This document shows, piece by piece, positions 522-60,565 of a stretch of DNA of 64,000 nt. Under the pieces are notes generated by a model. The model was not told the origin of the DNA. It made no database searches and worked only from the letters and a program-made list of their open reading frames with translations. The DNA is from the human T2T-CHM13v2.0 reference genome, Homo sapiens: the NCBI RefSeq assembly GCF_009914755.1, contig NC_060926.1. One strand, 5' to 3'. The translations under genes were made by a program, and so were the position numbers. How positions within the stretch are numbered: the stretch's first letter is position 1; each line of letters opens with the position of its first letter.

Positions 522-2227
522 AACAACCTAGATTCAGCCCCACTCAGGAACCCAGAGATGGGGTAGGAGTGGAGGTACTCTTTTATGCCTGTGAATGTGA
601 CCCCACCTTAGCCTGCCCAAGCTTTGAAATTGTAACATCTGGTTCCAGCCTTCCCTTTGGGATTCCTTCATGCTTCCTGGTCCCTGAGGGGTTCCTGTTT
701 TCAAAGGCAGGTGACAGAATCATCCAGGCACTGGGACTTAGCGGCCCAGGCTCTGGCCCAGCCGACCCACTGATTCCCTAGGGCCTGGATTTCTGGACCT
801 TCCTGACTTTAGATGTAAAACTGGGGAAAAGTCTAGCCTTCCTTCCAAGCTAAGGGTGAAGCCAAGGCAAGAGACAAATGTAAAAATTTCTGGGAATTCT
901 TGGAGGACAGTATTACCTTTTATCTTGTAGGATGGGAAAGCAGAAGAAGCTACTGTCAAAGGAAAAAAAAATTGTGACTTCTGACTAGGCATATAGAAAG
1001 GATTTTCCCTCTTGTTCTTCTTAGAACATCTTCAATCCATAAAAAGGGCTAGGATAAAAATGGTTTATGTTTTCTGCTGACTCTAGGGAAAATAAGGTGC
1101 TTTTTACTGAATCCGTGTATTTACTTATTAGGCACACTGAAAGGTAACTCACAGCCCAAATAGAAATCACAGGCTCTCTCTCCCCTTGATGGAGCCAAGT
1201 AAAGCTGCCCTGAGCTCAGAAACCCATAGCTAGCAAAGGGACAAACCCATAGCTAGCCAAGGGAAATCTGCTTGGGTTGGAAATTGGATTAATGACAGTT
1301 ATGACACGAGCTTGCCCCTTGCCCCCGACCCCTGTCTCTCATTCGTCCTTGAGGTTTTGCAAGTCAAGTTTCACTACAGACTGACACACATGCTCTAGAC
1401 TAACTGGAGGCTCAGGTTTGAGACAGGTCCAGATTCACACACTGGGATCCCCCATTTACACACATGTATGTCTTAGCCTGTAAAGGTTTACCGTTGAAAT
1501 GCCTGGAGAAGCTCAACTAGATTTAGATCATTGAAAGCTGTAATTTCCAAATGGATTAATAATTTATACACTGTTACTCTGGGCGTGAGGTTAGGGGTCA
1601 GTCTCCCTTTGTTATATGAGGATATTATGTGCTTTTAGGCTTTTTATGGCCTTTAATCTTATTTTCCTATCTATTAAGTAGCAGGCCCTTCACCAAGGCT
1701 GGCATTAATGACCAGATGATTAGAAAGCTGGCGTTAATTATATTCTACTGACAGAGCAGGCCCTTGCCTGCAATTGTTAGAAATGCACTTAAAACCTTTG
1801 CTTGCTGCACTGTTTGATCAAAAAGAGTAAGAGCCCTGAATTTGGTTTGCATTAAGGACCATCTAAATAAGTTAAATACAGGCACTTGAAATTGTGCAAG
1901 AATCATTTTACTGCAGCAGAGGAGCCTCAGTGGCACAGATAAAGGGAGAGCAGAGAGGACAAAAGTTATTTCCTTGGTTGAGTCCATGATGGTTTAGGAC
2001 AGCGGCAACAGCAAGTTTGGTCTTCCCAGTGATTTGTGGACCCAGGTAATAAAGAGACCATTGTATTAGGAGCCACCAGACATGTTGTGTAGCTCAGACT
2101 CTGTCACTATTGTCTTGTAAGCTGTGAAGCAAATCATAACCCTCTGGCCTTAGTTTCCTCATGTTAAAAGAAAATACTTATCCTCCCTGTGGCACAGGGT
2201 TTTGTTTAAAAGATTAGACAAGATGAT

Positions 2228-2822
2228 ACAACCATTTTGGAAATAATTTGGCAGCTTCTTATAAACATATACTTTACAGGTAAGCCAGCAATTGCACTCC
2301 TAGCTGCACCCACGAGAAATGAAAATATGTCCATACAAAGATTTATACACAAATGTTTATAGCAGCTTTATTCATAATAATCAAAAACTGAAAACAACTC
2401 AAACATCCATCAACAGGCAGATGGATAAACAAATTATGGTATGTCCATGCAACGGAATACAACTCACTGATGAAAAGGAATAAACCACAAATGCCTGCAA
2501 CGCCATGATGAATCTCAAAACATGCTGAGTGTAGAGAAGCCAGACACAAGAGTAGATACTCCTATACAATTCCACTTACATGGAAATCTAGAAAAGACAA
2601 TTCGAATATATAGTGGCAAAAAGCAGAAGAGTGGTTGCCTGGAACCAGGGTGGGAATGAAGATTAACTGCCCAGAGGCATAAAAAATGGGGTGGTGGGGG
2701 CGGTGATGGAAAAGTGCTATGCCTTCACTGTACCTTTGTCAAAACTTGTTGAACTGTATACTTCAAATGGGTGTGTGTTTTATTGAAGGTAAATTTGACC
2801 CCAATAACATTTATTTTTAAAA
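2228..2822 (+). mobile_element. Old L1M (L1MC/ME-like) 3' fragment in intron 7
   Basis: L1 3' motifs: cagcaattgcactcctag, atgtttatagcagctttattcataat, ggataaacaaattatggta, gaagccagacacaa. Confidence 0.8.
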
Positions 2823-2849
2823 ATTAAGAGCAAACAGAAAAAGCTTAGA

Positions 2850-3120
2850 CTAGGAATCTTTAATTTGAACTATAATTCTGTCTACTGTTTCCACTGAGGT
2901 GGTCTTTCAGCAAATGACTCAGTAGTTTTAAGCCTCAGTTTCTTCAGCTGTAAAGTGGGAATAACAACAGGCACCCCATGGTGTTGCCTATGAAATGCAG
3001 TGATGATGACCTAATCCTTAGTGAGCGCCCTATGTGCCAGGCACTGTGCTGAATGCTTTGCAGAAACGAATTCATCTTATCAGATAGTTCTGAACACTGC
3101 AAAGCACTATACAAATGTAA
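2850..3120 (+). mobile_element. MIR fragment(s)
   Basis: Core agcctcagtttcttcagctgtaaagtgggaataa. Confidence 0.6.
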
Positions 3121-4628
3121 GTTACAGGAATTCTTGCACTTTGCAGGTGCTTGTTAAATTGTGAAGAAGAAAGCAAAACATAAGTGTAAAGGATTACCAA
3201 ACTGCACTAGTATGAAGAGAGCCATGTTCCTCAGCTGTACAGGGCTGATGAATGGGGAGGAGGCCTGCGAGCCTACCAGGAGAACCGGGGAGACTCTCTG
3301 TCTACCGAGAGCCTGGATATCCTCCCGAGTGGCCCCTCATGAGACTATCTACCAACGTGTAACAGACTGTCTGTGACAGGCCATGGGCATAATATGTATT
3401 AGTATCTCTAAGAAAGAGGTGGCTTTTCCTATACAAAATTTGTTGGTGACAGTTGGTCAACACTTATGTACCTGATAAGCCATGTGGGTACAGTCGATCC
3501 TCAGTACAAATGGCAGTGGTATGCTGGGTAGCTAATGATGACAGTTATTACCGTTACTACTATTATTATCAATATCCTGTTTTGCAGAGGAGGAAACCAA
3601 AACCAAGAAGGATTGTTCCTTTCCCCAAATCCCAAGCTAGCAAGATTTCCCGATCCTCCCTCCATGCCCTTTCCTAACGTCTCTGTGATTTGGGAGCTTC
3701 TGAGCTGGAGTTCTGTAAATTCCCAAGGAATGGGCAGTTCAGAAAAATACCAAAAATTCTAACATTATTAGACTTTAAAGAGATTTATTGATTCCTTTTG
3801 AATGGCAGCAGATGGAACATTCTGGACTGGGGAAGGACAGTCTGTGATGTGAAACCCTTCCCCAAGGTAGACAACAAAAGCGTTTTTTAAATGAACACTT
3901 AGTAGAACAATCTAGAAGAGGAAAAACCTCATAAGTAGGAAGCCTAGCTGGGCGGTTGGGAGAAGGAGTATAAGTGATTTATTACAGCTTATGAAGAGAC
4001 TGTGTGTGGGCTGCCAGGGTCCCAGCTCTTTCTCAGCCCCAACTGAGAAAGGGTGGGGTGGTTTGCCTCTGCCTTTGCTGTGGGTCACAAACCTTCAGTG
4101 GCCCAAAAGGTGGCAAGCCTGACAGATGACCTGGAGAAATCAAGGATATCAATGTTTTAAATGCTTTTATTCATAAGCAGGGTATTGGTGGTGGGTCTGC
4201 TGAAAAAAAAAAACAAAAAAAAACAAAAAAAACTGCCCTGAGGTCAGGCTTTCTCCAGGCTGCTTAGAAGTCCCCCCACCTGGAGTGCTTGACGGGATGG
4301 CGCTCCTTACCCAGTGTGAAGGGGCTTCTTCTCATTGAACCCCATGAAGAAAGTAAGGCAGGTTCTGGACTTGGTTCTGCTTATAGCTGAGCTGGTCTGT
4401 GAGCCTGACTTGTCCAGGGATTGGTGATGGGCCACTGCAAAGCTGCATAGTGAGCGGGTCCCTCCCTCAGTAGACAGCCTTGGGCAAGTCATTTCACCTC
4501 TTCTCACCTCTTTTTCCTATATTTAAAATGAAGAGTTGGCTGAGGTGATCCCTAAGCTCCCTCCCAGGTCACTCTCCCTGGTCCTCACTGTCGTGGCGCC
4601 CTGTTCTGTCTGTTCCCCTGCAGATTAG

Positions 4629-4862
<234 letters not shown>

Positions 4863-5503
4863 TAAGCATGTGAGGGCTGGCGGGCCTTGGTGCAGGGTAT
4901 GTGGGGGTGCCCAAGCTTCCCAGACTCAGGATGACAGGCCTAGGAGATGCCAGGCCTCTCAGCGCCCTGGGCACCACCTCAGGGAGGTCTTGCAGGGCTA
5001 ACCCTAGTGACTGAGAGGACTTCCTGTGGATGTCTTGGAACAGTGGGATACTGGGTTGGGATTTTTTTTTCTGCGCTTTCCCTGGCATCTGTCATTTATG
5101 CCATGCATCTGACCCAGGTGGGGAGGCAGATAGCACACAATAGTCAATATTTTCTGAATGGGGAAAAAGGAAAGAGAATCGCTTATGCTTTTGGGAAAAA
5201 AAAAAGATGTCATGCCTTCACTCTATAGTACCTGGAAAGAAAGCTAGAGGAAGTCATTTCTAGTTGTTTCTACAGACAGAGAAAAACAAAAGCATCAGGC
5301 CTCATATATACCACCCCACTCAAGTGCAATAATATTTAATAAAACAGGATCCGAAACAGACATACATTCAGAGGATACCTCTGTTGTCACTACCTCCATG
5401 GCTCACACACTTCTATTGTATGGTTCTTTATAAGACGCCAATGCCTGGAGTCCTACCCATTTTTTGTCGGAGAGCTTAGCTATGAGGGTTTCCATGCATC
5501 TAG

Positions 5504-55277: not shown

Positions 55278-56284
55278 AAGAATTGATTCTTAATACTAAA
55301 AATGATCTTTTTAATTTGCAAATCCAGTTTGGTATGAACTTTTGCTTACTATAATATTTTAAAACTCACCAAAAAATCCAAGCAGGTCTGTATTTGACTA
55401 CTGTATTTTTTTTAAAGGATTACAAACTTAAAAAACAACTTTAGAAGAAATAATTTTTCAAAGTCCAAAAGAAAACACATGAGAAATATGCAATACAGTG
55501 ACATTCCAATAAGATATGAGAAAATTAGAAAAAGAAAACAAAAACATTTGTATGAATATGAAGGAAAGGATTCACATACAAATAAGCCCCCGAATAATTT
55601 GTATAGTCTATTTTTTGACAATTATAGATCAAGGTACTGTCTTGATTGAAGGAGCTTTGAAAAAATTGTGGAATAAATTCTGCCTTCAGTTTTTATAATA
55701 TCTAAGCATTGAAAAGTGTGAAAAAAGAACTTACTGTAGGGATCTAGATATTGCTTTAAATTGATGGTGATAAGCATTTTTTGATGAAGTCAAAATATTT
55801 TGTTGTATTTCAGCAGTAATAATTTGTCATGCAACCACATTACAATGTTTGTATTTACATGTAAAATTTTTGTTTCATTTCCTAATCAAAGTAATGCTTT
55901 AAGTATTTTATTGACAATTTCAGCAGCTACTGCCTCTGCAGAAAGAAGTTTTTCCAATTAAAATTAATTTTTAAAATAACCACAAAGACTAAGGAAAGGA
56001 TGTCTAATTTGACATTACAGTCAATCAACAAAAATTTTGTGAAAAATTCAATTAAAATAATTTTTAATTTTATTTAAAATATAGACAAATAAAATTTTCA
56101 CTGAAACATTATCATTCCATAAACAGAATAGACAGATATTCCCAATAAAAATAAAATTCAGTTATCTCCGATGTTTCATCAGCTTTAGCCATATATAAAA
56201 CCACAGCTTTTAAATATCTTTCAATTTTGTAGTTATATAGCTTTGTCATGGTAGGATAAAGTCAACAGTTTCTTAATTTATGGC

Positions 56285-56557
56285 TTTAAATATATTTATA
56301 TATTTAATATATAATTTATATAATATATAATATATATTATATAAATATAATATAAATATATATTATATATAATATATATAATATATAATATATATAATAT
56401 ATTATATATATTTATATTATATAAATATAATATAAATACATATATTATATATAATATATTTATATTATATATAATATAAATATATGTATTATATATAAAT
56501 ATATAATATATATAATATAAATATATATTTTTATATATATATTTATTTATATATATA
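56285..56557. repeat. AT-only low-complexity tract
   Basis: ~270 bp nearly pure A/T with recurring tatataatata units. Confidence 0.95.
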
Positions 56558-56852
<295 letters not shown>

Positions 56853-57555: not shown

Positions 57556-57797
57556 AACGAATGAATGTGTACATTAATGAATGCATGGGTTTATTTCCTG
57601 GTTTTTCATAGACCTACAACAGAAATCCACTCAGCCTGACAAAGTAAGGATTTTAATACCAGTCTTGGCACATACCCTCAAGAACCCCTGGATGCTAAAA
57701 TGGCTCAAAGAGCTAACAAAGTCTGGACAAACCAACATGCCTGGTTTAATTAGTCTGTAGGAAGTCCAGATATCGGTATTTCTTAAAAGCCTTCCAG

Positions 57798-60255
57798 AGT
57801 TCCGACAGAGATCACGGTGAGACTCTGAGCTCCGCGGCTAGCTCCCCTGGGGCCCTCCAAACCCTGGGCCAACGGGTGAGTTGGGGGAGCCCCAGGACAG
57901 ACTGGGGCCTCCGCCCTGCAGATATCCCAGAGCCCTTGCTATGGCTCCCACCGGCCACACCCAGGCCTTGAAGGAGCATCGACCATATTCCTCAACCCAC
58001 CTCGGTGACCTGATGGTGGCGGCAGCCTCTCCCAGCCGACCCCGCCGACCGCTGGATCTCCAGAGGACACCCCTGCCAAGCCACCCGGATGCAGAGCCTT
58101 TGAGTGGCAGCTGCCGTGGCCGGCCGGAAGCATGGCGGCGGCAGGGAGGCCCCTAGGGTGTGGCAGGGCGGGTCTACGGAGGCCTCTTTAGGCCACAGAG
58201 CAACGTAAAGCCTAGGCCTGCAGAGACTGCTCAGTCACAGTTGAAGGAGACCTACTGAGTCCTGAGGACAACCAACAAAGGCCTTAACGGCACAGAAGGT
58301 GAGCAAAGTCCTGGAGGAGGGTGAGCAGAAGGATCAGTGGCCATCGCGGGTTGGTGTTAGTTCTACCAGACCTCTATGTCGCAAGAGAAATGGTAGGATG
58401 ACAGGCCACAGTTGGCCCGCTGGACATGCCCACCACCCTTTGGGAAGGTTTACTGGCCGTTTATAGAAAACCTGTGTGTATATAACATGAAAAAGTTGCT
58501 CTCAACTTCCCTCCAACCTTTTAAAAGAAAACATTTTCCACATCTAGGCTTTCTAGATGAGAAGAGGTTGCCGACGTATGACAGAGTTAGAAAATCACAC
58601 ATCTTGTAAATTCTCATTTGTTTAAAAAGAAATCATAGGCCGGGCGCGGTGGCTCATGCCTGTAATCCCAGCACTTTGGGAGGGCGAGGCGGGCGGATCA
58701 CGAGGTCAGATCGAAACCAGCCTGACCAACGTGGTGAAACCCCGTCTCTACTAAAAATACAAAAATTAGCCGGGAGTGGTAGCGGGCATCTGTAATCCCA
58801 CCTACTCGGGAGGCTGAGGCAGGAGAATCGCTTGAACCCAGGAGACAGAGGTAGAGGGTGCAAGTGAGCGGAGATTGCACCATTGCACTCCAGCCTGGGT
58901 GACAGAGCAAGAATCCGTCTCAAAAAAAAAATTATAAAAAATAAATGTCTTCTGGAGGTGACTTTGAAGTGGTTAGACCACCTCTGGAAGCGAAGCTTCC
59001 ACGTTTGTTCAGTGAGTTAAAGGACATAGAAAACCTGAGAAGGAAGTTCTAGGCCAGTCTGGTCATATCTGAAGAGATTTTCATGTTCTAATCTAACCTT
59101 TGTTTTGTGTACATTTTATTAATGCTCACCACTGTACATAGAGTTGACTAACGTAAAACAATCCCTTCATAAATGTCCTTTTGTTTGTTTATAGGAAGTC
59201 CTGTCTTCTGGGATTGAGTTTGGTAATCCACCCCTTGGAGCTAAACACAGTAGTATCCTTAGTCGTTGGGATGGTGGGAGAGGGAGAAGAGGAAGGATGA
59301 AGGAAAGGGCTCTTTGCTAGTATCTCCATATCTAGAAGATGGTTTAAACTCATACCCATAGCTCTATATGAGCATTTTCAGTAAAGTGCCTGTGTTTGTT
59401 GTGGACAAGTTTTATTATTTTGCAACATCTGAGCTTTATGAAAGTCCTGGAGTGACAATGTATGATAAAAAGTAGAGCTAGTGAATTAGGCAATTTATTA
59501 ATATTTTTTGTTATAACTGATAGAAAAGATGCATCTTGAACATGGAATTGTTAAGCCACGTCTGAGCAGTGTATGTCAGGACTTGTTCATTAGGTTGGCA
59601 GCAGAAGGGCAGAATGAAGTATAAAGGGAGAGATGTATGCAAATGTGTCTATGTTTACATTTTGATACTAGTCATTGATATATGTGCAACTCTTTTGGCT
59701 GTACTATAGGAATACAGTAAGTAATTTGAAGGAAACATACCTTCTTGCTAATATTTTAATGGTATAGATATGAGAAATTATCTTAGAAACATTATACATA
59801 GTGTATTCTGCTGCTTTATGTTTCATTTTAAATTGAGCATTAAGAAAACGCAGTATTTTAATCAGAACTCTGCTAATGCTTTTATGTAGAGGCATGTTGT
59901 CATTTGGGTCTTCTATGAAATTTTTGTCCTAAGAAAGGGAGGATTACATTTTTTCTAACAGATGAAGTTGCTGTAATGTGTTGCTGAGTATCAGAATACT
60001 CACATAGCTTTAAGATTTTGAATTGGTAAATATTCATGATGTGTGAAAAGGCATGATACATAACATATGATCTCAAGTCCATCAAGTTGGATGTTGTATC
60101 TACACAAACAGGACTTAGAAGGACATGTGAAACTAAATTGCTTGTGATTGTGGATGGCTTTGTTCTTTGCTTCTAGTGGTTTTCAGTTTCCTGTAATGCA
60201 CACATTAGCTTTTAAAAAGTGAAGGTTATTTTTTAAAACCTGTAAAAAAAAAAAA
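57798..60255 (+). pseudogene. Processed retrocopy of lncRNA NORAD (LINC00657), internally deleted, Alu-interrupted
   Basis: Starts agttccgacagagatc and continues through blocks recognised as NORAD (cccacctcggtgac; gcctctttaggccac; gagaaatggtaggatgacaggccac; gaggttgccgacgtatga; gagcagtgtatgtcaggacttgttcattaggttggcagcag); ends ggttattttttaaaacctgt + A12 (60244-60255); ttccag on both flanks (57792-57797, 60256-60261). Match is from memory of NORAD. Confidence 0.88.
58638..58931 (+). mobile_element. AluS inserted within the NORAD retrocopy
   Basis: Dimeric Alu; degenerate TSD aaaagaaatcata / aaaaaaaattata. Confidence 0.92.
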
Positions 60256-60294
60256 TTCCAGGTGACGCTACATCATAAGGTTGAGAGCCACTGG

Positions 60295-60565
60295 GGTAAG
60301 TTGCTGACTCTGGTATGTAGTTAGTATTTATTCTAAGTGCAATGGGAAGGCATTATAGGGGTCAAGGAGAGGCATGACATGATCTAATTTACTGTTTAAG
60401 GCTGAGGCTTTGTGGAGAGTGGACTATGGAGGGTGACAGCAGAAGCAAGGTACTGGTTAGGAGCTGACTGGGGAGAGTAAAGGGAATCAGGATATATGTC
60501 AGGCATAGGGCTGTCCAGTCATGCTGACAACAGAGGTCCTGGGAGTGAAGGACAGAGAAGAATCC
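60295..60565 (-). mobile_element. L2 fragment
   Basis: tattctaagtgcaatgggaaggcatt...tgacatgatctaattta. Confidence 0.65.

What the first reader, a model, noticed from the sequence alone, without database searches (positions are those of the whole stretch)
59130..59220. 'Mini-NORAD': about 3 kb of the repeat core is missing, joined near a repeat-unit homology
Seen: excluding the Alu the copy is ~2.15 kb, whereas NORAD is ~5.3 kb (established), yet both ends appear present. The switch from 5' to 3' NORAD sequence seems to fall just after TGTACATA (59133-59140). Internal repeat homology is visible in the window: acatctaggcttt...gtatgacagagttag (58540-58590) vs acatctgagcttt...gtatgataaaaagtagagctag (59425-59481). 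Inference: deletion between NORAD repeat units, a reverse-transcriptase template jump, or a fossil of a shorter/spliced ancestral NORAD isoform.
Basis: partly seen in the sequence, partly recalled or inferred. Interest (0 to 1): 0.7.

Follow-up and report, generated by a model that had tools for sequence, protein, structure and literature searches.

The report
Old NORAD retrocopy missing its middle
This is an old DNA copy of the human NORAD RNA that lost about 2.9 kb of its middle in one cut, likely by ordinary break repair after insertion; it is a decayed pseudogene, not a hidden short form of NORAD.

Summary
Window 57798-60255 is a retrocopy of NORAD with both ends, a poly(A) tail, a target-site repeat and a later Alu. 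It has one large gap: NORAD nt 1154 joins nt 4265 at window 59148/59153, across a 4-nt filler. The loss is 3,110 nt of today's NORAD, but about 2,860 nt of the Alu-free form that was copied.

The interpretation mostly fails. There is no GT donor at the left break, no other locus carries the junction, and the join is sharp (at most 2 nt microhomology) and 43-73 nt out of repeat register. A sister copy on C5 shows what a repeat-driven deletion looks like: in register, across 68 identical bases. Deletions over 1 kb occur in 3 of 6 old both-ended copies and 0 of 6 younger ones (not significant), each at its own place.

Best reading: end-joining deletion after insertion (0.5). Rivals: a reverse-transcriptase jump, or in-register crossover plus a second deletion (about 0.22 each). 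The copy keeps 2 of 15 Pumilio sites, both intronic in LINC02583.

Side finding: true short-NORAD fossils lie elsewhere, ending at internal poly(A) sites.

The parts
57785..57797 (+). 5' target-site duplication, beginning at a TT/AAAA site of the L1 endonuclease type
   Evidence: sequence; its last six bases TTCCAG recur behind the poly(A) tail; degenerate match
57798..58638 (+). NORAD nt 1-927: GC-rich 5' module and repeat unit 1; starts at the NORAD 5' end
58209..58298 (+). annotated exon 1 of LINC02583, lying inside the copy; its donor (GT at 58299) matches the same motif at NORAD nt 581/582
   Evidence: hub gene table
58477..58484 (+). Pumilio element of unit 1 (kept)
58639..58931 (+). Alu inserted later into the copy (subfamily not tested)
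   Evidence: absent at this site in NORAD
58932..59148 (+). NORAD nt about 927-1154: spacer and 5' part of unit 2
59133..59140 (+). Pumilio element of unit 2 (kept, TGTACATA)
59149..59152 (+). deletion junction: 2-4 nt filler between NORAD nt 1154-1156 and nt 4265
   Evidence: split alignments
59153..60243 (+). NORAD nt 4265-5340: 3' part of unit 11, unit 12 and the 3' module
   Evidence: 90% identical to the old-copy consensus
60244..60261 (+). poly(A) tail (12 A) and the 3' copy of the target-site duplication

Best explanation
The stretch is a NORAD retrocopy with both ends, a poly(A) tail and one 2.86-kb internal gap, which likely arose after insertion when a DNA break was rejoined without long homology. 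Shown: parent, ends, tail, gap size, sharp out-of-register join with a 2-4 nt filler, junction private to this locus. Inferred: L1 machinery made the copy (tail, target-site repeat, TT/AAAA site); it was full length when inserted, in early primates; end joining removed units 2 (3' half) to 11 (5' half); it now has no Pumilio-decoy role, and its one visible afterlife is to supply exon 1 of LINC02583.
For: Sharp score peak at the join, 0-2 nt microhomology, 40-nt identity across the breaks 0.47 (10% of random pairs reach it; 17% on modern NORAD), against a 100-nt plateau and 68 identical bases in sister copy L042. Offset 43-73 nt; random pairs do as well 29-49% of the time. Both halves are equally old, 13.6% and 14.0% non-CpG from NORAD, and fall among the old copies in both trees. 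Gaps over 1 kb: 3 of 6 old both-ended copies, 0 of 6 younger start-to-poly(A) copies, each at another place; more gaps of 0.2-0.7 kb in four further old copies by coordinates. No pairing brings the two ends of the lost stretch together (76% of random pairs pair as well or better).
Against: The old-versus-young contrast is not significant (Fisher p = 0.18). The right break lies in the last 6 nt of a 24-of-25 nt block shared by units 2 and 11, about 8% by chance, found after the fact. Short filler and little microhomology fit a reverse-transcriptase jump equally. About 10% substitution has blurred the join. Three large losses in six copies seems more than plain neutral deletion would give (my rough estimate, no call), so the repeats may help.
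Confidence: 0.5

Rival explanations
1. The L1 reverse transcriptase copied about 1,080 nt from the NORAD 3' end, jumped to nt 1154 of the same or another NORAD molecule, added a few bases and finished, so the copy was born short.
For: Few-base filler without homology; one insertion with both ends of equal age. The right break is about 20 nt downstream of an internal poly(A) cleavage site that copy L034 records, so an RNA end may have lain there.
Against: No copy under 12% divergence shows such a gap (0 of 6). No A-tract at the join and no pairing between the ends. In the passages I read on new tumour insertions, internal deletions go with 5' inversions and are short, median 14.5 bp (10.1101/2024.08.27.596794); this copy has no inversion.
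Confidence: 0.22
2. Units 2 and 11 first recombined in register within their shared 25-nt block, and a second deletion of about 73 nt then removed the left side and most of that block.
For: The right break sits inside the shared block. In-register loss does occur in this family (L042). L046 also breaks at the end of a shared block with about 165 nt extra lost.
Against: Needs two events at one spot; the copy has no other deletion above 21 nt. The kept left flank is unit 2 and the kept right flank unit 11, with no stretch of overlap.
Confidence: 0.22
3. The copy records a spliced or otherwise internally shorter ancestral NORAD RNA.
For: An AG lies at the right break (after it the copy's TAAAAC follows). 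Short NORAD RNAs did get copied.
Against: No GT at the left break: the nearest are 5 nt inside the kept part and 22 nt inside the lost part, neither donor-like; the stretch before the AG is purine-rich. No second locus has the junction. Old copies of the same age hold the whole core (L041, L043, L044/45). The repeats predate the eutherian split (PMC4947167) and NORAD is described as intronless (PMC9186391). The short copies are cut at the 3' end, not inside.
Confidence: 0.03

Closest known systems
NORAD processed pseudogenes (HCG11 and others; PMC4947167, PMC6407921)
   Same: Same parent, poly(A) tail, target-site repeat; many such copies are reported in human and mouse.
   Different: Older (14% against the over-90%-identical copies named in print) and lacks nine units of the core.
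Sister copies L042 (C5:33.157 Mb) and L046 (C14:16.0 Mb)
   Same: Old, both ends, one large core deletion (1,887 and about 2,050 nt).
   Different: Other breakpoints; L042 is in register across 68 identical bases, the window copy is not.
Engineered mini-NORAD7/8 and mini-NORAD3/4 (PMC7617650)
   Same: Shortened NORAD with the 5' module.
   Different: Those keep units 7+8 or 3+4, which carry the activity; this copy lost exactly these and is closer to the inactive construct without the middle, though it keeps two Pumilio sites.
Tibetan-enriched 3.4-kb deletion near EPAS1 (TED; PMC5241213)
   Same: A deletion of about 3 kb downstream of EPAS1.
   Different: TED lies 80 kb downstream; this junction lies 43 kb downstream. 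Different place.

Membership tests
L1-made processed pseudogene of NORAD | collinear copy of the mature RNA at another locus | tested here: met
L1-made processed pseudogene of NORAD | poly(A) tail at the RNA's 3' end, not in the parent gene | tested here: met
   12 A at 60244-60255; parent continues otherwise
L1-made processed pseudogene of NORAD | target-site duplication at a TT/AAAA site | tested here: met
   57785-57797 and 60250-60261, degenerate: six bases exact plus the A run
Retrocopy of a spliced isoform | GT..AG (or CT..AC) at the parent's breakpoints with donor and pyrimidine tract | tested here: not met
Retrocopy of a spliced isoform | same junction in independent copies or transcripts | tested here: not met
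   copies: only the window; transcripts could not be searched
Repeat-mediated (homologous) deletion | join in register inside extended homology | tested here: not met
   43-73 nt off, at most 2 nt shared; L042 as positive control
End-joining deletion after insertion | 0-4 nt microhomology or short filler | tested here: met
End-joining deletion after insertion | undeleted allele in an outgroup | not testable with these tools
   no primate genomes are held (no relatives)
Functional Pumilio decoy (mini-NORAD) | three or more Pumilio elements with the paired region of units 7+8 or 3+4 | tested here: not met
   2 UGUANAUA left of 15; units 3-10 lost
Functional Pumilio decoy (mini-NORAD) | abundant unspliced cytoplasmic RNA | not testable with these tools
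   no expression data; the annotated LINC02583 splices out both elements

The most novel reading that the evidence does not exclude
The copy is a fossil chimera of two NORAD processing products: L1 reverse transcriptase copied the downstream piece left by cleavage at NORAD's internal poly(A) site near nt 4244, ran off its trimmed 5' end at nt 4265 and jumped onto a 5' NORAD piece at nt 1154. The retrocopy family would then map how NORAD is cut in the germ line.
Probability: 0.08. Interest if true: 0.55.

Novelty: new member of a known kind. Interest (0 to 1): 0.2.

Why it matters
At this locus it matters little: an old pseudogene lost its middle, as sister copies did. Two by-products have more value. 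The copy gives a lncRNA next to EPAS1 (LINC02583) its first exon and splice donor. And the family shows NORAD RNAs ending at internal poly(A) signals (nt 2150 twice, nt about 4244 once, each with tail), so NORAD has or had short isoforms with fewer Pumilio sites, which 3'-end sequencing can test directly.

Tried and rejected
Splicing: no donor, no pyrimidine tract. Shared junction: 15 matches to a junction query, only the window spans it, the other 14 start at or after the right break; motif search 1 hit, the window. RNA pairing across the gap: no signal. Two separate insertions fused: both halves equally old, one target-site repeat. My first chain called a 553-nt deletion in L036; it is a 66-nt duplication and was dropped. 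First breakpoints for L042 and L046 were wrong because of cross-unit matches and were remapped. In one search the unit-9 row of L048 hit unit 3 and was ignored; L041, L044/45 and L050 confirm the unit 3/9 likeness. Testing whether the two flanks continue one older element gave nothing. Special protection of the CpG-rich 5' part: CpG o/e 0.46, within the 0.12-0.96 range of 10 other copies. ORFs: 8 of 50 aa or more, none over 71 aa, not pursued. Confusion with TED rejected by distance. A tail right behind nt 2720 was not found by a strict motif (0 hits). Print: searches for NORAD with retrocop/PUMILIO (0), retrotransposed/HCG11 (0), pseudogene/LINC00657 (21), LINC02583 (5), spliced isoform (9), alternative polyadenylation/short isoform (10): no listing described this copy or its junction; most were seen as listings only, and supplements were not read.

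Full report
What is there. Searching the window's own genome with the two halves of the stretch gave 37 and 53 matches, among them a locus on C20 that holds both. That locus is NORAD: 5,343 nt, the length used in PMC7617650 (section 8 read), with 17 UGURUAUA motifs as reported in PMC4947167 (passages), whose repeat-9 oligo matches my ninth unit by eye and fixes the unit numbering. The window copy runs from the NORAD 5' end (57798) to its 3' end, a 12-A tail and a degenerate target-site repeat that starts at a TT/AAAA site. An Alu was inserted later at 58639-58931. Without it the copy is 2,152 nt.

The gap. The alignment is collinear with one large gap: NORAD nt 1154 to 4265, 3,110 nt in the reference against 4 nt in the copy. 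Of the 3,110 nt, 298 are an Alu in today's NORAD. Copies older than L033, such as L036, lack it, and the window copy is older than L036, so the RNA that was copied had no such Alu. Against a consensus of ten older copies the loss is 2,860-2,864 nt. The join is at 59148/59153 with 2-4 filler bases, 8 nt behind the kept Pumilio element of unit 2.

Not splicing. The left break has no donor; the nearest GT lie 5 nt inside the kept part and 22 nt inside the lost part, neither donor-like. An AG does lie at the right break, which counts for the idea, but behind a purine-rich stretch. A junction query matched 15 loci; only the window spans it, and a motif search found 1 hit, the window. Copies of the same age hold the whole core. 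NORAD is described as intronless (PMC9186391, passages); PMC6677556 (passages) mentions no spliced NORAD form.

Not a simple repeat crossover. The join links unit 2 to unit 11, but the homologous point for the left break is 43 nt before the right break, and that for the right break 73 nt behind the left break. Random pairs come as close 29-49% of the time. Microhomology is at most 2 nt; identity over 40 nt across the breaks is 0.47, reached by 10% of random pairs (17% on modern NORAD). Sister copy L042 is the positive control: 1,887 nt lost in register between units 3 and 9, a flat 100-nt crossover zone, 68 identical bases in the consensus and 0.93 identity on modern NORAD. Against my reading: the window's right break lies in the last 6 nt of a 24-of-25 nt block shared by units 2 and 11. 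That is about an 8% chance, noticed after the fact, and keeps a two-step history alive.

When and how. Both halves are 13.6% and 14.0% (non-CpG) from NORAD and group with the old copies in two trees of 15 rows each (rows with under 60% coverage of the segment were left out; the order among old copies is poorly supported). One old insertion, then; early primate age is my inference from recalled rates. Of the copies I read in sequence, nine have both ends: gaps over 1 kb occur in 3 of the 6 old ones (window, L042, L046) and in none of the 3 younger ones, nor in 3 younger copies that run from the start to an internal poly(A) tail (p = 0.18). Four more old copies show gaps of 0.2-0.7 kb by coordinates alone. 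Each gap is at its own place. This pattern leans to deletion accumulating after insertion, joined without long homology (0.5). A jump during reverse transcription (0.22) leaves a similar scar and cannot be excluded; RNA pairing does not favour it, and the new-insertion internal deletions in the passages I read are short and tied to inversions (10.1101/2024.08.27.596794). No primate genomes were available, and I read only 18 of the several dozen NORAD-like places in sequence.

What it does. It keeps 2 of 15 UGUANAUA elements and has lost units 3-10. In PMC7617650 activity needs units 7+8 or 3+4 with their paired region; removing the middle abolishes it. The name mini-NORAD therefore misleads. 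The annotated exon 1 of LINC02583 lies inside the copy and uses a donor also present at NORAD nt 581/582; splicing from it removes both Pumilio elements and the junction. LINC02583 turned up in 5 papers; in PMC11130355 it labels one SNP in a table, and PMC11548878 gave no passage in the main text. The Tibetan 3.4-kb deletion lies 80 kb behind EPAS1 (PMC5241213, passages), this junction 43 kb.

Known and new. Many NORAD pseudogenes are on record. My ten searches listed nothing on this copy or junction; subscription papers and supplements were not seen. It is a new member of a known kind.

By-product. L037 (C7) and a copy on C2 both end at nt 2150 in an A run, 21 nt behind AGTAAA (2 exact motif hits; the 11 two-mismatch hits match the control's 8). 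L034 (C23) ends near nt 4244, 26 nt behind ATTAAA, and L035 (C5) at nt 2594; L034, L035 and L037 have target-site repeats. Two copies stop at nt 2719-2720, about 18 nt behind the other ATTAAA, tail not shown. The window's right break is about 20 nt downstream of the 4244 site, which gives the novel case (0.08).

Verdict: real feature, ordinary cause; interest 0.2.

Noticed in passing
L037 (G000:C7:23342461-23344579), G000:C2:53548989-53549728, L034 (C23:79433.7-79438.0 kb), L035 (C5:25293610-25296177): NORAD retrocopies that end in an A tail at internal positions (nt 2150 twice, about 4244, 2594); three read in sequence have target-site repeats, and the 2150 and 4244 ends lie 21-26 nt behind AGTAAA or ATTAAA. 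Likely fossils of short, internally polyadenylated NORAD isoforms. Two more stop at nt 2719-2720 behind ATTAAA, tail not shown.
   Followed up: partly
L042 (G000:C5:33157023-33159832): Clean in-register deletion of six repeat units (1,887 nt) between units 3 and 9, which were nearly identical in the older NORAD.
   Followed up: yes
L046 (G000:C14:16000755-16005600): About 2,050 nt lost from the end of the unit-3 core into unit 10; out of register by about 165 nt.
   Followed up: partly
window 58209-58300: LINC02583 exon 1 and its splice donor are NORAD-derived; the same donor motif sits in intronless NORAD at nt 581/582.
   Followed up: partly
L031 (NORAD nt 3662-3959; nt 2528/2529): The copies date changes in NORAD itself: the internal Alu is present from L033 on and absent in L036 and older; about 35-45 nt at nt 2528 are present in old copies and missing today; the older consensus has 18 UGUANAUA elements against 15.
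   Followed up: partly
G000:C4:109751715-109753837: NORAD copy with its 5' part inverted against its 3' part, by coordinates; fits twin priming.
   Followed up: no
L044/L045 (G000:C3:136.529-136.544 Mb) and L036 (C9:116176096): An 8.6-kb insertion inside one copy; a 66-nt tandem duplication inside another.
   Followed up: no
window 57700-57797 and 60256-60295: The two flanks together look like one old DNA-transposon fossil (MER5A-like; recalled, from no call) split by the insertion; local and genome searches could not confirm it.
   Followed up: partly
window 56279-56564: A 285-nt AT-only low-complexity tract attached to the tail of a minus-strand Alu (56565-56850), which forms an inverted pair with the Alu inside the copy about 1.8 kb away (84-90% complementary arms).
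   Followed up: no
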